Shown piece by piece: positions 7,027 through 34,004 of a DNA stretch of 64,000 bases. Origin of the DNA: Escherichia phage vB_EcoM-G3F7. The notes beneath the pieces were generated by a model, which saw nothing but the letters and a program-made list of their open reading frames with translations, ran no database searches and had not been told where the DNA came from. The first letter of the stretch is position 1. Each line of letters begins with the position of its first letter. The position numbers were made by a program, and so were the translations under genes. The DNA lies in the sequence record MZ234035.1. One strand, written 5' to 3'.

Positions 7027-7290
7027 ATGTTTAAAGTATATGGTTATGATAGCAACATTCATAAATGTGTGTATTGCGATAATGCAAAACGTCTTTTGAC
7101 CGTGAAGAAACAGCCGTTTGAATTTATCAACATTATGCCGGAAAAAGGTGTTTTTGATGATGAGAAAATTGCTGAGCTTCTGACTAAACTAGGTCGTGAT
7201 ACTCAAATCGGCTTGACAATGCCCCAGGTATTTGCTCCTGATGGAAGTCATATTGGTGGATTTGACCAACTGCGAGAATATTTTAAATGA
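7027..7290 (+). CDS. nrdC: thioredoxin/glutaredoxin NrdC
   Basis: 87 aa; CVYC redox motif; matches T4 NrdC length and sequence as recalled. Confidence 0.85.
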   Translation: MFKVYGYDSNIHKCVYCDNAKRLLTVKKQPFEFINIMPEKGVFDDEKIAELLTKLGRDTQIGLTMPQVFAPDGSHIGGFDQLREYFK

Positions 7291-7502
7291 TGCTCGAAGG
7301 AACTGACTATATTCATGATTACCGCGGAAGCGCGGTATATGTAGGTGATGAAGTTGCAGTTTATTATGGGTATAGAACTTTGATGACAGCCAAGGTTATT
7401 CAAATTAAAAATAATCGTGCTAAACTCGAAGTTTATTATTCTAATGGTGAAAAGTCTATTTCTAAGTGGAAATACGGCGATTGTATGGTTAAATTGGGGT
7501 AA
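7287..7502 (+). CDS. hypothetical protein
   Basis: 71-aa ORF; ATGA overlap with nrdC stop. Confidence 0.5.
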   Translation: MMLEGTDYIHDYRGSAVYVGDEVAVYYGYRTLMTAKVIQIKNNRAKLEVYYSNGEKSISKWKYGDCMVKLG

Positions 7503-7504
7503 AT

Positions 7505-7675
7505 ATGATTTACGATATTAATGTATCAAGAACTCCGTCAATGGTTACTATTCCAGCCGAAGAACTAGATCGTCTTCAGAAAATTGAAGAGCTTCTTTGG
7601 GAAATTGAATCTGATTTGCCATCAGGATTAGAATCCTGGATTGATTATGAAGAACTTAATAAGCTTCGGGGTTAA
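7505..7675 (+). CDS. hypothetical acidic protein
   Basis: 56-aa ORF; a +1-frame ORF (7647-7814) overlaps its 3' end. Confidence 0.4.
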   Translation: MIYDINVSRTPSMVTIPAEELDRLQKIEELLWEIESDLPSGLESWIDYEELNKLRG

Positions 7676-7797
7676 ACCTTGGTGGGCGGCTAGATGGGAA
7701 ACTGTAGAGCCAGAGCCGGAAGAACCGGTTTACATTGATGAAGAAACAGTATATAATGAACCAACGATAAATGACTTAATTGATATGGAGATGGGAC

Positions 7798-8283
7798 ATG
7801 ATTACAGTAGATAAGTGGTTTAGAATTAATCGTGTTGATACAGGGCTATGTAATTACTGGCCGGAACTTAGTGCAGGTACTGTCTTTAAAGTTCGTGAAC
7901 TTGCAAAAGAATGCGAAGATGATATAGAACCTGATACTGGAATTATTGAAATTGAACTTTCCGACGGAAAGATTATTAACATCTATGATAAGCCAATTAC
8001 ATACTGGTGTTTGTGGAATACTGAATCCGTTGAAAATGGCGAAATTGAAGAAGTTGTAGAGAGAACTAGCCAAGATGTTCAGAAGCCTAAAGCCGCTTTT
8101 CAAGGTGAACGTATTTCATACGCATTAGCTAAATTAGCTGCGCAAGAAAATAACGATGGCTATGAAGGTAACCTGATGCAAGCTGCCGCAGAGTACATTG
8201 AATGGCTTGAAACTCAAATTTCTTTTTCTGACCAAAAGATTCGGCAATATAAGCGATTGCATCAAATGTTTTACAATACTTGA
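7798..8283 (+). CDS. pin: Lon protease inhibitor Pin-like protein
   Basis: 161 aa from ATG 7798; position between nrdC and gene 49 as in T4. Confidence 0.5.
   Translation: MITVDKWFRINRVDTGLCNYWPELSAGTVFKVRELAKECEDDIEPDTGIIEIELSDGKIINIYDKPITYWCLWNTESVENGEIEEVVERTSQDVQKPKAAFQGERISYALAKLAAQENNDGYEGNLMQAAAEYIEWLETQISFSDQKIRQYKRLHQMFYNT
8236..8283 (+). repeat. direct repeat copy 1 (3' end of pin)
   Basis: About 46 nt highly similar to 8449-8496. Confidence 0.6.
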
Positions 8284-8319
8284 AAAAACTCAAAATTCTT
8301 TTTCTGACAGGACATTTTA

Positions 8320-8496
8320 ATGAAAACCGAATTGGTTTATACTGAAAAGTTAAATGGCGGTAAGGTTTGGAAACTTTTTATTAAAGGACATTCTACGGAC
8401 CCTCATATGACCACTTGCGTAGGAACCTATTCTCGTCCTACTAAAAAGATGATTCGACAGTATAAACGATTGCATCGAATGTTTTACAATACTTAA
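8320..8496 (+). CDS. small ORF sharing duplicated C-terminal tail with pin
   Basis: 58-aa ORF ending IRQYKRLHRMFYNT, near-identical to pin C-terminus. Confidence 0.35.
   Translation: MKTELVYTEKLNGGKVWKLFIKGHSTDPHMTTCVGTYSRPTKKMIRQYKRLHRMFYNT
8449..8496 (+). repeat. direct repeat copy 2 (3' end of small ORF)
   Basis: Near-identical to 8236-8283 with a 3-nt insertion and a few substitutions. Confidence 0.6.
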
Positions 8497-8539
8497 AAAT
8501 AATAAATACCCTTATCTATTTAAGGTAAGGGTATTTATT

Positions 8540-9013
8540 ATGTTATTGACTGGCAAATTATACAAAGAAGAAAAACAAAAATTTTATGATGCACAAAATG
8601 GTAAATGCTTAATTTGCCAACGAGAACTAAATCCTGACGTTCAAGCTAATCATCTTGATCATGACCATGAATTAAATGGACCAAAAGCAGGAAAGGTACG
8701 TGGATTGCTTTGTAATCTCTGCAATGCTGCAGAAGGTCAAATGAAGCACAAATTTAATCGTTCTGGCTTAAAGGGACAAGGTGTTGATTATCTTGAATGG
8801 TTAGAAAATTTACTTACTTATTTAAAATCCGATTACACCCAAAATAATATTCATCCTAACTTTGTTGGAGATAAATCAAAGGAATTTTCTCGTTTAGGAA
8901 AAGAGGAAATGATGGCCGAGATGCTTCAAAGAGGATTTGAATATAATGAATCTGACACCAAAACACAATTAATAGCTTCATTTAAGAAGCAGCTTAGAAA
9001 GAGTTTAAAATGA
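8540..9013 (+). CDS. 49: endonuclease VII (Holliday junction resolvase)
   Basis: 157 aa; Cys/His zinc-site pattern; matches T4 gp49 as recalled. Confidence 0.85.
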   Translation: MLLTGKLYKEEKQKFYDAQNGKCLICQRELNPDVQANHLDHDHELNGPKAGKVRGLLCNLCNAAEGQMKHKFNRSGLKGQGVDYLEWLENLLTYLKSDYTQNNIHPNFVGDKSKEFSRLGKEEMMAEMLQRGFEYNESDTKTQLIASFKKQLRKSLK

Positions 9014-10827
9014 CAATTGAAAAAGAAATTGAAGGATTGATTCATAAAACTAATAAAGACCTTTTAAACGAGAATGCTAATAAAGATTCTCGTGTTTTTC
9101 CAACTCAACGGGACCTTATGGCTGGTATTGTGTCTAAACACATTGCCAAAAATATGGTCCCGTCTTTTATTATGAAAGCGCATGAAAGCGGAATTATTCA
9201 TTTCCATGATATTGATTATTCCCCTGCTCTTCCATTTACTAATTGTTGTTTAGTAGATTTAAAAGGAATGCTTGAAAACGGATTTAAGCTTGGTAATGCA
9301 CAGATTGAAACTCCTAAATCAATTGGCGTTGCTACTGCAATTATGGCGCAAATTACTGCACAGGTTGCTTCTCACCAATACGGCGGAACGACTTTTGCTA
9401 ATGTAGATAAAGTACTTTCTCCTTATGTTAAACGCACCTATGCAAAACATATTGAGGATGCAGAAAAATGGCAAATCGCTGATGCGTTAAATTATGCTCA
9501 ATCTAAAACAGAAAAAGATGTATACGATGCATTCCAAGCTTATGAATATGAAGTAAATACTCTCTTTAGTTCAAACGGACAGACTCCTTTTGTAACAATT
9601 ACATTTGGTACGGGAACTGACTGGACTGAACGAATGATTCAGAAAGCAATTCTGAAAAATCGTATTAAAGGTCTCGGTCGTGATGGGATAACTCCTATTT
9701 TCCCTAAGCTTGTTATGTTCGTTGAAGAAGGCGTTAATCTTTATAAAGACGATCCGAACTATGATATTAAGCAGCTTGCTTTAGAGTGTGCAAGCAAAAG
9801 GATGTATCCTGATATTATTTCAGCTAAGAACAATAAAGCTATCACCGGCTCATCTATTCCTGTTTCTCCAATGGGTTGCCGCAGTTTCTTGAGCGCGTGG
9901 AAAGATTCAACCGGTAATGAAATTCTTGATGGACGTAATAATCTTGGTGTTGTAACACTGAATCTTCCTCGTATTGCGTTGGATTCTTATATTGGAACAC
10001 AGTTCAATGAACAGAAATTTACTGAATTGTTCAATGAGCGAATGGATTTATGTTTTGAAGCTTTGATGTGTAGAATTAGTTCCTTAAAAGGAGTTAAAGC
10101 GACTGTTGCTCCTATTCTTTACCAAGAAGGTGCATTCGGGGTTCGTCTTAAACCTGATGACGACATAATTGAGTTATTTAAAAACGGTAGAAGTTCAGTG
10201 TCTTTAGGATACATTGGTATTCATGAATTGAATATTCTTGTCGGTCGTGATATTGGACAAGAAATTTTAACTAAAATGAATGCTCGTCTTAAACAGTGGG
10301 CTGAAAGAACTGGGTTTGCTTTTAGTTTGTATTCGACTCCTGCTGAAAACCTTTGTTATCGCTTCTGTAAACTTGATACAGAAAAATATGGAAGTGTAAA
10401 AGATGTTACCGATAAAGGATGGTACACTAACAGTTTCCATGTTTCAGTAGAAGAAAATATTACTCCGTTTGAAAAGATTTCTCGCGAAGCCCCATATCAT
10501 TTCATTGCGACAGGTGGTCACATTTCTTATGTTGAACTTCCTGATATGAAAAATAACCTAAAAGGTCTTGAGGCTGTCTGGGATTATGCTGCACAACATT
10601 TAGATTATTTTGGTGTTAATATGCCAGTAGATAAGTGTTTTACATGCGGAAGTACCCATGAAATGACTCCTACTGAAAACGGATTTGTTTGTTCTATTTG
10701 TGGAGAAACTGATCCTAAAAAGATGAACACAATAAGAAGAACATGCGGCTATCTTGGAACTCCTAGCGTTGTTCCATGGAATTTAGGTAAAATGAAAGAA
10801 ATGGTAAAACGAGTAAAACATGCATAG
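9010..10827 (+). CDS. nrdD: anaerobic ribonucleoside-triphosphate reductase NrdD
   Basis: 605 aa uninterrupted; C-terminal glycyl-radical motif RRTCGYLG and CxxC...CxxC zinc ribbon. Confidence 0.92.
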   Translation: MTIEKEIEGLIHKTNKDLLNENANKDSRVFPTQRDLMAGIVSKHIAKNMVPSFIMKAHESGIIHFHDIDYSPALPFTNCCLVDLKGMLENGFKLGNAQIETPKSIGVATAIMAQITAQVASHQYGGTTFANVDKVLSPYVKRTYAKHIEDAEKWQIADALNYAQSKTEKDVYDAFQAYEYEVNTLFSSNGQTPFVTITFGTGTDWTERMIQKAILKNRIKGLGRDGITPIFPKLVMFVEEGVNLYKDDPNYDIKQLALECASKRMYPDIISAKNNKAITGSSIPVSPMGCRSFLSAWKDSTGNEILDGRNNLGVVTLNLPRIALDSYIGTQFNEQKFTELFNERMDLCFEALMCRISSLKGVKATVAPILYQEGAFGVRLKPDDDIIELFKNGRSSVSLGYIGIHELNILVGRDIGQEILTKMNARLKQWAERTGFAFSLYSTPAENLCYRFCKLDTEKYGSVKDVTDKGWYTNSFHVSVEENITPFEKISREAPYHFIATGGHISYVELPDMKNNLKGLEAVWDYAAQHLDYFGVNMPVDKCFTCGSTHEMTPTENGFVCSICGETDPKKMNTIRRTCGYLGTPSVVPWNLGKMKEMVKRVKHA

Positions 10828-31724: not shown

Positions 31725-33152
31725 GTGGTAGAAATTATTCTTTCTCATCTCATATTTGATCAAGCTTATTTTTCAAAAGTTTGGCCATATATGGATTCAG
31801 AATATTTTGAAAGTGGTCCAGCTAAAAATACATTCAAATTAATTAAATCTCATGTCAATGAGTATCATAGCGTTCCATCTATTAATGCGTTAAATGTTGC
31901 ATTAGAAAATAGTTCATTTACTGAAACAGAATATTCTGGTGTAAAAACACTTATTTCAAAACTAGCTGATTCTCCGGAAGACCACAGCTGGTTAGTAAAA
32001 GAAACAGAAAAATATGTTCAGCAAAGGGCGATGTTTAATGCTACGTCTAAAATAATCGAAATTCAAACTAATGCTGAGCTTCCTCCGGAAAAACGAAATA
32101 AGAAAATGCCAGATGTAGGTGCTATTCCTGACATCATGCGCCAAGCATTATCAATTTCATTTGATAGTTACGTTGGTCATGATTGGATGGATGACTACGA
32201 AGCACGCTGGCTATCTTATATGAATAAAGCTCGTAAAGTTCCATTTAAACTCAGAATTCTAAACAAAATTACGAAAGGCGGAGCTGAAACTGGAACACTG
32301 AACGTTTTAATGGCTGGCGTTAACGTTGGTAAGTCATTAGGTCTGTGTTCATTGGCAGCAGATTATTTGCAGCTCGGACATAATGTTCTTTACATTTCCA
32401 TGGAAATGGCAGAAGAAGTCTGTGCTAAGCGTATTGACGCTAACATGCTTGATGTTTCTCTTGATGACATTGATGATGGGCATATTTCTTACGCTGAGTA
32501 TAAAGGAAAAATGGAAAAATGGCGTGAGAAATCTACTCTCGGCCGTTTAATCGTTAAACAGTATCCTACTGGTGGAGCAGATGCTAATACATTTCGGTCG
32601 CTTTTAAATGAATTAAAGCTCAAGAAGAATTTTGTTCCAACAATCATTATTGTTGACTATCTAGGTATTTGTAAATCTTGCCGCATTAGAGTTTATTCAG
32701 AAAATAGTTACACAACTGTTAAAGCCATCGCAGAAGAATTGCGTGCTCTGGCTGTTGAAACTGAAACTGTTCTTTGGACTGCAGCACAGGTTGGTAAACA
32801 AGCTTGGGACTCTTCCGATGTTAACATGAGTGATATCGCAGAATCTGCTGGTCTTCCAGCGACAGCTGATTTTATGCTTGCGGTCATTGAAACCGAGGAG
32901 TTAGCAGCTGCTGAACAACAACTCATTAAGCAAATCAAATCACGATATGGTGATAAGAATAAATGGAATAAGTTTTTGATGGGTGTTCAAAAAGGAAATC
33001 AGAAATGGGTAGAAATTGAACAAGATTCTACTCCAACTGAAGTGAACGAAGTAGCAGGTTCACAACAGATTCAGGCTGAACAGAATCGCTATCAAAGAAA
33101 CGAATCGACTCGAGCTCAGTTAGATGCTTTGGCGAATGAATTAAAATTTTAG
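31725..33152 (+). CDS. 41: replicative helicase gp41 (DnaB-like)
   Basis: 475 aa; Walker A GVNVGKS; apparent GTG start. Confidence 0.95.
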   Translation: MVEIILSHLIFDQAYFSKVWPYMDSEYFESGPAKNTFKLIKSHVNEYHSVPSINALNVALENSSFTETEYSGVKTLISKLADSPEDHSWLVKETEKYVQQRAMFNATSKIIEIQTNAELPPEKRNKKMPDVGAIPDIMRQALSISFDSYVGHDWMDDYEARWLSYMNKARKVPFKLRILNKITKGGAETGTLNVLMAGVNVGKSLGLCSLAADYLQLGHNVLYISMEMAEEVCAKRIDANMLDVSLDDIDDGHISYAEYKGKMEKWREKSTLGRLIVKQYPTGGADANTFRSLLNELKLKKNFVPTIIIVDYLGICKSCRIRVYSENSYTTVKAIAEELRALAVETETVLWTAAQVGKQAWDSSDVNMSDIAESAGLPATADFMLAVIETEELAAAEQQLIKQIKSRYGDKNKWNKFLMGVQKGNQKWVEIEQDSTPTEVNEVAGSQQIQAEQNRYQRNESTRAQLDALANELKF

Positions 33153-33210: not shown

Positions 33211-33393
33211 ATGGAATTGGTAAAGGTAGTTTTTATGGGGTGGTTTAAGAATGAAAGCACGTTTACTAAAGAAACCACAATGATGAAAGATGACGTTCAA
33301 TGGGCTACTACTCAGTATGCTGAAGTTAATAAAGCATTAGTTAAAGCTTTCATTGATGACAAGAAAGTATGTGAAGTGGATTGCCGAGGATAA
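33211..33393 (+). CDS. dmd: Dmd-like antitoxin
   Basis: 60 aa, directly downstream of gene 41 and an early promoter; size and position match T4 dmd. Confidence 0.6.
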   Translation: MELVKVVFMGWFKNESTFTKETTMMKDDVQWATTQYAEVNKALVKAFIDDKKVCEVDCRG

Positions 33394-33394
33394 T

Positions 33395-33652
33395 ATGCAT
33401 ATTGTTTTATTTAAACCTACTCCGTATAACGTCAGGAAAAATACACAATTCAAAGCACTTATTGCCGATACGTGGGAATTGGTGTTAGATATTCCAGCAG
33501 AAGAAAGTCCTCCATTTGGTCGAGTGGAATTTATTAAGTTTGCTGTTCGCCCTACGAAGCGGCAGATTCGTCAGTGTAAAAGGTATTTTCGTAAGATCGT
33601 TAAGCTAGAGAAACAGTTTGTAACATGTGATTACGCAAAAGTTTTAAAATAA
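33395..33652 (+). CDS. hypothetical basic protein (61.4 position)
   Basis: 85 aa from ATG 33395; Lys/Arg-rich. Confidence 0.45.
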   Translation: MHIVLFKPTPYNVRKNTQFKALIADTWELVLDIPAEESPPFGRVEFIKFAVRPTKRQIRQCKRYFRKIVKLEKQFVTCDYAKVLK

Positions 33653-33710: not shown

Positions 33711-34004
33711 ATGAAAAAATTTATCTTTGCTACAATTTTTGCTTTAGCTTCTTGTGCTGCTCAGCCTGCTATGGCAGGTTATGATAAAGATTTGTGCGAA
33801 TGGTCTATGACTGCGGATCAGACTGAGGTTGAAACTCAAATTGAAGCAGATATTATGAATATCGTTGAGCGTGATCGTCCTGAAATGAAAGCTGAAGTGC
33901 AAAAACAGCTTAAGTCTGGTGGTGTAATGCAGTATAATTACGTTCTGTATTGTGATAAAAACTTTAATAATAAAAATATCATCGCTGAAGTGGTAGGTGA
34001 ATAA
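33711..34004 (+). CDS. sp: Spackle-like periplasmic protein
   Basis: 97 aa with N-terminal signal peptide; size and position match T4 sp. Confidence 0.6.
   Translation: MKKFIFATIFALASCAAQPAMAGYDKDLCEWSMTADQTEVETQIEADIMNIVERDRPEMKAEVQKQLKSGGVMQYNYVLYCDKNFNNKNIIAEVVGE

What the first reader, a model, noticed from the sequence alone, without database searches (positions are those of the whole stretch)
8236..8496. Duplicated 3' end of pin gives two ORFs with the same 14-residue tail
The last about 46 nt of the pin-like gene (…IRQYKRLHQMFYNT*) recur 213 nt downstream as the end of a 58-codon ORF (…IRQYKRLHRMFYNT*), with a 3-nt insertion and a few substitutions. This looks like a partial duplication or recombination footprint that carries a short motif onto a second protein.
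Basis: seen in the sequence. Interest (0 to 1): 0.4.

Follow-up and report, generated by a model that had tools for sequence, protein, structure and literature searches.

The report
Pin carries its neighbour gene's tail
The repeat is real, but the shared 14-residue tail belongs to the small gene downstream of pin and was captured by pin through an old deletion-fusion (the same fusion seen in the textbook T4 PinA protein); this phage keeps both the fused pin and an intact copy of the small gene, and the repeats have repeatedly deleted that gene in related phages.

Summary
In detail: 8238-8283 recurs at 8451-8496 (41/46 nt, spacing 213 nt), far beyond chance, and 113 GenBank Tequatrovirus genomes carry the same junction. 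It is a recombination footprint, but the direction is reversed. ORF58 (8320-8496) is a conserved gene under purifying selection, a member of Pfam DUF7279, and the tail is its only predicted helix. Pin homologues in Dhakavirus, Karamvirus, more distant lineages and about half of the sampled Tequatrovirus pin protein clusters end ...SFSDRAF* without the tail, with the stop overlapping the ORF58 start (TAATG). T4-type pin (161 aa) is pin residues 1-146 fused in frame to ORF58 codons 44-58. The window holds this fused pin, a 35-nt relic of the old pin end with its stop (8286-8320), and an intact ORF58. T4 lacks exactly 8284-8496. Natural isolates (PST, fPS-65, 4E10) are collapse products of this arrangement, with three different crossover points inside the 46-nt repeat. 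Other lineages lost or rearranged ORF58 independently, and DUF7279 sequence fused to pin at least twice more. The order of events and the function of ORF58 remain unresolved. This is a tidy, apparently undescribed example of ordinary phage mosaicism. Interest is modest.

The parts
7798..8235 (+). pin body, codons 1-146 (PinA / Inhibitor_I24 domain)
   Evidence: Pfam PF10465 scores 160.8 bits over residues 4-141, and phrog_2167 covers residues 1-146. Colinear with the 148-aa pins of PP01 and NBG2.
8210..8233 (+). Repeat A: the pin sequence just before the fusion point (AAACTCAAATTTCTTTTTCTGACC)
   Evidence: 22/24 identical to 8286-8309.
8236..8283 (+). Captured tail t: pin codons 147-161 plus the TGA stop, homologous to ORF58 codons 44-58
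   Evidence: 41/46 nt identical to 8451-8496. Pin residues 147-161 match phrog_3272 positions 44-58 and the ORF58 profile at E = 1e-5. Absent from 148-aa pins.
8284..8496 (+). The 213 nt that T4 lacks: relic + ORF58 + second repeat copy
   Evidence: Alignment with T4 shows a single clean 213-nt gap.
8286..8320 (+). Relic of the ancestral pin 3' end (reads TQNSFSDRTF*). It includes repeat A' (8286-8309), an AGGA Shine-Dalgarno-like site (8309-8312), and a TAA stop (8318-8320) that overlaps the ORF58 ATG
   Evidence: Colinear with the real pin end ...ETQ(I/N)SFSDRAF* + TAATG of PP01, NBG2 and SfPhi01, and ...FSDKAF* of Dhakavirus VR5.
8320..8496 (+). ORF58, a DUF7279-family gene (58 aa). Codons 1-43 (8320-8448) are unique; codons 44-58 plus the stop (8449-8496) are the native tail t'
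   Evidence: Pfam PF23945 scores 62.7 bits (cut-off 24.5) and phrog_3272 gives 3e-34 over the full length. dN/dS is 0.08-0.27 against relatives. The model has three strands plus helix 42-56.
8499..8541 (+). Stem-loop over the gene 49 ribosome-binding site and start codon, holding a late-promoter-like TAATAAATA. It is the fixed right-hand boundary of every rearrangement found
   Evidence: Inverted repeat I1. RNA fold -23.5 kcal/mol, z = -5.2. Conserved in T4 and all loci examined. Its regulatory role in T4 is from my own knowledge of Barth et al. 1988, which is cited in PMC2988022.
8540..9013 (+). Gene 49 (endonuclease VII), the downstream anchor
   Evidence: 157-aa ORF, annotated as endonuclease VII in the matching records.

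Best explanation
**What it is.** The repeat marks a chimeric pin gene sitting next to the gene that donated its tail.

**Ancestral layout (type I, shown).** pin (about 148 aa, ending ...SFSDRAF*), with its stop overlapping the start of ORF58 (TAATG), then ORF58 (DUF7279, 58 aa), a hairpin, and gene 49.

**The fusion (type II; the layout is shown, the single origin is inferred).** A deletion of about 137 nt joined pin codon 146 in frame to ORF58 codon 44. This produced the 161-aa pin of T4.

**The window (type III, shown).** It contains this fused pin, a 35-nt relic of an unfused pin end, and an intact ORF58.

**How type III arose (inferred).** Most likely an illegitimate crossover in the A-run just after the fused pin's stop (ACTTGAAA|AAACTC) joined a fused-pin genome to the right half of a diverged type I genome.

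**Consequences (shown).** The arrangement carries two pairs of direct repeats: t/t' of 46 nt and A/A' of 24 nt. Recombination between t and t' removes 213 nt, including ORF58, and gives a T4-type locus. This has happened repeatedly in nature.

**The tail itself (inferred).** It is the single helix of the ORF58 fold. On pin it merely extends the C-terminal helix and is probably a tolerated passenger.
For: **1. The tail is native to DUF7279.**
- The Pfam and PHROG profiles of ORF58 include it.
- It is kept in all family members found.
- It is kept in paralogues elsewhere: window 33353-33652, the copy upstream of pin in L020/L021, and Karamvirus RZH.
- dN/dS on the tail is low (about 0.2 or less) while dS reaches 0.7-1.9, so the constraint acts on the protein, not the DNA.
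- It forms helix 42-56 of the model.

**2. The tail is foreign to pin.**
- Pin profiles end at residue 141-146.
- 148-aa pins end SFSDRAF. Dhakavirus, Karamvirus and pins at 44% identity end ...FSxxxF. Mosigvirus-like pins end YLERRLS.

**3. The relic.** Positions 8286-8320 reproduce the type I pin end, including the TAATG overlap.

**4. One fusion event.** All 161-aa pins share the same register. Their junction variants (DRM, DQM, DQK, DQT) are linked by single substitutions. All carry CAA at tail codon 10, except the predicted collapse products.

**5. One origin of type III.** The junction is identical in the window, G29, SG1, 235Ecol030PP, RB32 and L14, and 113 records match it.

**6. Collapse is documented.** T4 and phiD1 equal the window minus 213 nt. 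PST, fPS-65 and 4E10 are single-copy genomes with mosaic t/t' tails and three different crossover points.

**7. The interval is a hot spot.**
- The REP4-type clean deletion of ORF58 occurs in 69 records.
- Ec_YwIITB1 has a rearranged layout.
- L020 is an independent fusion across an ACGTTT microhomology.
Against: - **Order of events unresolved.** RB32 has A and A' identical, which would also fit an intragenomic duplication.
- **Missing donor.** No type I genome with the relic allele (DRTF*/DKAF*) plus the window's ORF58 allele was found, so the proposed type I donor is unsampled.
- **Mechanism of the founding deletion unknown.** The T4-type fusion junction (GACCGA|ATGATT) shows no microhomology.
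- **Passenger status not demonstrated.** The substitution contrast (pin tail 4 nonsynonymous to 1 synonymous; ORF58 tail 1 to 3) is not significant (p = 0.21). The pin model is of low confidence in the tail.
- **No expression data.** Translation of ORF58 is inferred from conservation only.
Confidence: 0.8

Rival explanations
1. The tail is pin's own C-terminus, and a partial duplication of the pin 3' end was placed downstream, giving a pre-existing or new short ORF a pin-derived tail.
For: The two copies are direct repeats 213 nt apart, and the pin copy lies upstream. RB32's GenBank note already calls the small ORF similar to pin.
Against: - The tail is part of the DUF7279 and phrog_3272 profiles and is present in paralogues and orthologues in genomes whose pin lacks it.
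- The pin family profiles exclude it.
- The relic of a tail-less pin end lies between the copies.
Confidence: 0.03
2. Intragenomic route. In a type I genome the segment from the pin end through ORF58 was tandemly duplicated, and the first ORF58 copy was then deleted internally, creating the fused pin in place. On this view type III is the ancestor of all type II genomes, T4 included, through collapse of the t/t' repeat.
For: - Collapse from type III to type II demonstrably occurs.
- RB32 has identical A and A'.
- phiD1 equals the window minus 213 nt.
- It needs the same number of rare events as the favoured route.
Against: - t and t' differ at 5 of 46 positions, while the flanks are nearly identical to T4.
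- The relic ends DRTF*/DKAF*, unlike any sampled Tequatrovirus pin end (DRAF*). The ORF58 allele of type III is at most 93% identical to any type I allele.
- Most type II tails carry CAA at codon 10. Collapses with crossovers in the 5' 27 nt of the repeat would give CGA.
- No genome with two full ORF58 copies was seen.
Confidence: 0.2
3. The tail is a portable functional module, and its presence on both proteins is selected. On this view DUF7279 proteins and PinA act on a common target or on each other, and repeated fusions are adaptive rather than accidents of adjacency.
For: - There are three separate fusions of DUF7279 sequence to pin: the T4-type fusion in 365 records, L020, and a whole-domain N-terminal fusion in two samples.
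- DUF7279 genes flank pin on both sides in L021.
- The fused tail keeps its reading frame and most residues across hundreds of genomes.
Against: - 69 records lost ORF58 cleanly while keeping an unfused pin, so neither ORF58 nor the tail is required.
- The variable sites in the pin tail are mostly nonsynonymous.
- In Dhakaviruses ORF58 stays with gene 49 even where pin is truncated or absent.
- There is no fold or functional lead.
Confidence: 0.15
4. The repeat is an assembly or sequencing artefact.
For: None found.
Against: 113 independent records share the junction. Allelic variants of it exist (SG1, RB32, L14).
Confidence: 0.01

Closest known systems
T4 PinA (pin, NP_049694, 161 aa), the characterised inhibitor of E. 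coli Lon
   Same: Same pin body and the same fused C-terminal 15 residues in the same register. T4's locus equals the window's minus 8284-8496.
   Different: T4 has no ORF58 and no relic, so the chimeric origin of its C-terminus cannot be seen in T4 alone. The junction residues differ (DRMIQQ in T4, DQKIRQ here).
PP01/NBG2-type locus (pin of 148 aa, overlapping ORF58, then gene 49), with its equivalents in Dhakavirus VR5 and Karamvirus RZH
   Same: Same genes in the same order and the same ORF58 with its tail. The window's relic 8286-8320 is colinear with their pin end and TAATG overlap.
   Different: Their pin is unfused and there is no repeat.
Pfam DUF7279 (PF23945) / phrog_3272, small T4-type phage proteins of unknown function
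   Same: ORF58 is a full-length member, and a second member lies at window 33353-33652.
   Different: Nothing differs in the protein itself. What is new is that the last helix of one member has been grafted onto pin.
Deletion between short direct repeats and modular shuffling in T4-type hyperplastic regions (for example promoter-stem-loop cassettes; recalled from my own knowledge of Arbiol et al. 2010, not checked here)
   Same: A small non-essential gene is gained and lost between conserved anchors, with repeats at the boundaries.
   Different: Here the repeats are coding sequence created by a gene fusion, not regulatory cassettes. The junctions show only A-run or 6-7-nt microhomologies.
RBS-sequestering hairpin with an internal late promoter upstream of T4 gene 49 (Barth et al. 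1988; the general mechanism is described in PMC2988022)
   Same: The hairpin 8499-8541 is conserved and is the right-hand limit of every rearrangement.
   Different: It is not part of the repeat and is unaffected by it.

Membership tests
Pfam DUF7279 (PF23945), tested on ORF58 | Score above the curated gathering cut-off over the whole domain | tested here: met
   62.7 bits against a 24.5-bit cut-off. Residues 7-56 match profile positions 1-53 of 53. phrog_3272 gives 3e-34 over residues 1-58.
Pfam DUF7279 (PF23945), tested on ORF58 | Conserved C-terminal RPTK..IR..KR..(H)R.F(Y) helix shared by family members | tested here: met
   Invariant R39 P40 T41 K42 I45 R46 K49 R50 H52 R53 F55 among close members. 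The same pattern is in the paralogue at 33353-33652, the copy upstream of pin in L021, and Karamvirus RZH.
PinA / Inhibitor_I24 (PF10465), tested on pin | Score above the gathering cut-off | tested here: met
   160.8 bits against a 27-bit cut-off over residues 4-141.
PinA / Inhibitor_I24 (PF10465), tested on pin | Binds and inhibits Lon protease | not testable with these tools
   Known only for the T4 protein (papers cited in PMC8835725). The window's pin is 90-99% identical to close relatives in the protein search.
PinA / Inhibitor_I24 (PF10465), tested on pin | Whether the C-terminal 15 residues belong to the family domain | tested here: not met
   The profiles end at residue 141-146. Homologues in at least four lineages lack the tail.
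   The polarity is the reverse.
Chimeric gene made by deletion-fusion of neighbouring genes | Both parent genes exist separately, adjacent and in the same order, in relatives, and the fusion is in frame | tested here: met
   PP01, NBG2, SfPhi01, VR5 and RZH have separate pin and ORF58. T4 and the window's pin equal pin 1-146 plus ORF58 44-58 in frame.
Direct-repeat-mediated deletion polymorphism | Genomes exist that equal this one minus one repeat copy and the DNA between the copies, with crossover points inside the repeat | tested here: met
   phiD1 and T4. PST, fPS-65 and 4E10 carry mosaic tails with three different crossover points.
Direct-repeat-mediated deletion polymorphism | Reciprocal collapse through the shorter A/A' repeat (predicts a type I genome with the relic allele) | tested here: not met
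   No single-piece match to the predicted product among 50,697 phage records.

The most novel reading that the evidence does not exclude
DUF7279 proteins are functional partners of PinA, a Rosetta-stone relationship. The helix grafted onto T4-type PinA, which is the form used in all published Lon-inhibition biochemistry, would then alter how PinA engages Lon or another host target. On this reading the three independent DUF7279-pin fusions are adaptive, not accidents of adjacency.
Probability: 0.15. Interest if true: 0.55.

Novelty: new member of a known kind. Interest (0 to 1): 0.35.

Why it matters
**For PinA biochemistry.** The textbook Lon inhibitor, T4 PinA, turns out to be a chimera. Its last 15 residues come from a neighbouring gene that T4 no longer has, and many relatives make a 148-aa pin without them. 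Anyone mapping the Lon-binding surface of PinA, or using it as a reagent, should know that the C-terminus is not part of the ancestral inhibitor.

**For annotation.** This explains the puzzling "similar to pin" notes on the small ORF and gives that ORF a family (DUF7279).

**For phage evolution.** The locus preserves, in natural isolates, nearly every step of a gene fusion, reacquisition and repeat-mediated loss cycle, including collapse products with mapped crossover points. That makes it a compact teaching and test case for recombination between short diverged repeats.

It does not reveal a new kind of system.

Tried and rejected
**Function of ORF58**
- A fold search of the ORF58 model against the PDB found nothing (best E = 0.27).
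- A deep profile search of 1.8 billion representatives found only 9 hits at E <= 0.001. Three of them (P0044, P0045, P0048) are near-full-length family members, P0046 and P0049 look truncated, and four are long repetitive proteins that are probably spurious.
- No solved structure exists for pin.
- No paper mentions DUF7279, and none discusses PinA's C-terminus.

**The tail DNA as a cis element for gene 49: rejected**
- REP4-type genomes (69 records) delete almost all of it and keep gene 49.
- Synonymous sites in the tail are free to vary.
- No sigma-70-like promoter or terminator was found inside 8200-8500.

**Other tests**
- Relaxed selection on the pin tail relative to the ORF58 tail showed a trend only (p = 0.21).
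- The search for the A/A' collapse product found none.
- The IMG/VR scan gave only 6 loci, so the census rests on GenBank phages.
- Junction queries of 91-121 nt were confounded by BLAST piece-joining. I replaced them with 42-45-nt junction queries that only one arrangement can match.
- Barth et al. 1988 and Skorupski et al. 1988 are not held in the library.
- Translational bypass or read-through from pin into the tail was considered and dropped. The fused pin is a plain continuous ORF, and in type I genomes pin stops at TAA.

Full report
**Context.** The window is a Tequatrovirus genome segment, 100% identical over the region to Escherichia phage vB_EcoM-CHD94UKE2. The local gene order is:
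- nrdC (7027-7290)
- two small ORFs
- 49.1 (7641-7814)
- pin (7798-8283, 161 aa)
- a 58-codon ORF (8320-8496, here called ORF58)
- a strong hairpin
- gene 49, endonuclease VII (8540-9013)
- nrdD (9010-10827)

- The stretch 8238-8283 recurs at 8451-8496, 213 nt downstream, with 41 of 46 bases identical. In 200 shuffles of the surrounding 1.4 kb the best 46-mer match was 30/46.
- A degenerate 28-mer from the repeat (one R position, up to 2 mismatches allowed) occurs only at these two places in the 64-kb window, against 0 expected.
- The two ORFs end IRQYKRLHQMFYNT* and IRQYKRLHRMFYNT*.
In ungapped register pin codon 147 (AAG) pairs with ORF58 codon 44 (ATG), and other fused pins have ATG at that position.
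- The same junction is in 113 GenBank records, so it is not an artefact.

**What T4 shows.** T4 has only 41 nt between pin and gene 49. Aligned with the window, it lacks exactly 8284-8496, which is 213 nt.

**Which protein owns the tail.**

*ORF58 owns it:*
- ORF58 is a full-length member of Pfam DUF7279 (62.7 bits against a 24.5-bit cut-off, residues 7-56 on profile positions 1-53 of 53) and of phrog_3272. Both profiles run through the tail.
- All relatives found keep RPTKKMIRQ(Y/F)KR(L/F)HR.F.
- More distant DUF7279 members have the same C-terminal pattern. These are a second gene in this window at 33353-33652 (73 bits), a copy upstream of pin in Mosigvirus-like contigs, and the Karamvirus RZH homologue.
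- ORF58 is under purifying selection (dN/dS 0.08-0.27). This holds in the tail too, where dS reaches 0.7-1.9, so the constraint acts on the protein and not on the DNA.
- The AlphaFold model (pLDDT 82 for the best model; the other four were lower) has three strands and a single helix, residues 42-56, which is the tail.

*Pin does not:*
- The PinA Pfam domain covers pin residues 4-141 and phrog_2167 covers residues 1-146. Pin residues 147-161 instead match the ORF58 profiles.
- Many Tequatrovirus pins are 148 aa and end ...ETQ(I/N/K)SFSDRAF.
- Dhakavirus pin fragments end FSD(K/E)AF. Karamvirus pin ends FNSRKF. Pins at 44% identity end FS(S/D)(K/R)(S/G)F or FNAKSF. Mosigvirus-like pins end YLERRLS.

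The tail is therefore native to ORF58 and secondary in pin.

**The arrangements of the pin to gene 49 interval.**
- **Type I** (PP01, NBG2, SfPhi01; also Dhakavirus VR5 and Karamvirus RZH). Pin ends ...SFSDRAF*, with its TAA overlapping the ORF58 ATG (TAATG), followed by ORF58, the hairpin and gene 49.
- **Type II** (T4, T2, T6, RB7, HP3, phiD1). Pin codons 1-146 are fused in frame to ORF58 codons 44-58. ORF58 codons 1-43 are gone. This is 137 nt shorter than type I.
- **Type III** (the window, G29, SG1, 235Ecol030PP, RB32, L14). The fused pin is followed by AAAAACTCAAAATTCTTTTTCTGACAGGACATTTTAATG and then an intact ORF58. The intervening sequence (8286-8320) is colinear with the end of a type I pin and reads TQNSFSDRTF* in the old pin frame, with the TAATG overlap intact.
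- **Type IV** (REP4 and 68 other records). A 148-aa pin, with ORF58 removed cleanly between TTTTAAT and TTTTACAAT.
- **A single fifth form** (Ec_YwIITB1). A type I pin and ORF58 codons 1-43, followed by a 14-nt piece of the pin end and the fused-pin junction and tail, which frameshifts ORF58.

**Census in the GenBank phage collection.**

| Junction | Records |
|---|---|
| Fused pin junction (types II + III) | 365 |
| Type III junction | 113 |
| Type II, by difference | about 252 |
| Type IV junction | 69 |
| ORF58-specific DNA, all types and genera | 265 |

**History, and what is inferred.**
- Type I is shared by three genera, so it is ancestral (inferred from distribution).
- All 161-aa pins share one fusion register. 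Their junction variants DRM, DQM, DQK and DQT are linked by single substitutions, and all carry CAA (Q) at tail codon 10 where ORF58 has CGA (R). This points to a single fusion event.
- All type III genomes share one tail-to-relic junction, which points to a single origin.
- I favour the view that type III arose when a fused-pin genome was joined to the right half of a diverged type I genome by an illegitimate crossover in the A-run after the pin stop codon (ACTTGAAA|AAACTC). That A-run also slips: it is A11 in phage L14.
- Three things support this view. The relic ends DRTF*/DKAF*, unlike the DRAF* of sampled Tequatrovirus pins. The type III ORF58 allele is at most 93% identical to any type I allele. 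And t and t' differ at 5 of 46 positions although the flanks are nearly identical to T4.
- The alternative is a tandem duplication within one genome followed by an internal deletion, with type II descending from type III. This cannot be excluded. RB32 has identical A and A' copies, and the proposed donor lineage is unsampled.

**The repeat is active in nature.** If type III collapses through the 46-nt repeat, crossovers upstream of codon 10 should produce fused pins carrying ORF58-type alleles. I searched for exactly those sequences and found them, each with a single tail copy followed directly by the hairpin:
- **Yersinia phage PST.** It has the pin junction and then the window's ORF58-tail alleles, including its TAA stop. 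The crossover lies within GATTCG.
- **fPS-65.** It has pin-type alleles to codon 6, then CGA and TAA.
- **4E10.** It has CGA with a TGA stop.
- **phiD1.** It is the window minus 213 nt, with all pin-type alleles.

Most type II genomes nevertheless carry CAA, so most are not fresh collapses. The product predicted for collapse through the shorter 24-nt repeat was not found.

**Other fusions.** In a Mosigvirus-like contig (L021) pin is flanked by DUF7279 genes on both sides.
- A relative (L020) has lost the downstream copy, leaving pin ...YLERR fused to FHRDFYNVY* across an ACGTTT microhomology. This fusion is independent of the T4-type one.
- In two independent metagenome samples a 1-nt deletion removes the stop codon of the upstream DUF7279 gene and fuses the whole domain to the N-terminus of pin.

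Such fusions are at least tolerated. Whether they are selected is open.

**Function.**
- The pin model shows the tail merely continuing the C-terminal helix (122-159) at low confidence.
- Variable sites are mostly nonsynonymous in the pin tail (4 to 1) and mostly synonymous in the ORF58 tail (1 to 3), but the contrast is not significant (p = 0.21).
- Neither ORF58 nor the tail DNA is needed in cis for gene 49, because 69 type IV genomes lack both.
- All published PinA biochemistry that I could trace used the T4 161-aa protein, and no structure or domain mapping exists.
- ORF58 has no fold match, and its family is narrow.
- The hairpin 8499-8541 (-23.5 kcal/mol, z = -5.2) corresponds to the known T4 gene 49 RBS-masking stem-loop. 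That role is from my own knowledge of Barth et al. 1988, which is cited in PMC2988022. The hairpin bounds every rearrangement on the right.

**Novelty and verdict.**
- I found no published description. The nearest thing is RB32's GenBank note that its small ORF is "similar to ... pin".
- This is a new, well-documented instance of familiar processes: deletion-fusion, illegitimate recombination and deletion between direct repeats in a T4-type plastic region.
- Its one notable point is that the model protein T4 PinA is chimeric at its C-terminus.
- Interest is 0.35.

Noticed in passing
window 33353-33652 (+): A 99-aa ORF between the gene 41 helicase (31725-33152) and a spackle-like secreted 97-aa ORF (33711-34004) is a second DUF7279 member (Pfam 73 bits; phrog_2375). 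It shares RPTK(K/R)xIRQxKR with ORF58, so the family is multi-copy in this genome.
   Followed up: partly
window 9010-10827 (+): nrdD is an uninterrupted 605-aa ORF here, whereas T4's nrdD is split by a group I intron that encodes I-TevII.
   Followed up: no
window 7287-7675 (+): Between nrdC and 49.1 the window has 71-aa and 56-aa ORFs where T4 has 49.3 and 49.2 (102 and 106 aa). In phage SG1 the ORF of equal size is annotated as an antitoxin. Not checked.
   Followed up: no
window 8191-8227 vs 8786-8822: Pin (AAEYIEWLETQ) and endonuclease VII (GVDYLEWLENL) share a short EWLE-centred similarity at DNA level (70% over 37 nt) and protein level (BLASTP E = 0.012). This is probably chance.
   Followed up: partly
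L027 (Escherichia phage Ec_YwIITB1), locus 76-360: A fifth arrangement: a 148-aa pin, then ORF58 codons 1-43, then ATTCTTTTTCTGAC plus the fused-pin junction (CAAACG) and the pin-type tail. This frameshifts ORF58 into an 86-aa ORF that overlaps the gene 49 start. It is either a recombinant between type I and type II genomes or a possible intermediate.
   Followed up: partly
L029 (Escherichia phage L14), junction after the pin stop: The A-run at the tail-to-relic junction is A11 instead of A6, so the junction is prone to slippage.
   Followed up: no
L021 1682-2509: In a Mosigvirus-like contig a 275-aa ORF with a methyltransferase-like NPPY motif (VIGNPPYGG) sits between the downstream DUF7279 gene and the gene 49 hairpin. 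The same interval therefore also accepts larger cargo.
   Followed up: no
L022/L023 1501-2076: A 1-nt deletion (TATTGATATG to TATGATATG) removes the stop codon of the DUF7279 gene upstream of pin and makes a 191-aa DUF7279-PinA fusion protein. It is seen in two independent metagenome samples.
   Followed up: yes
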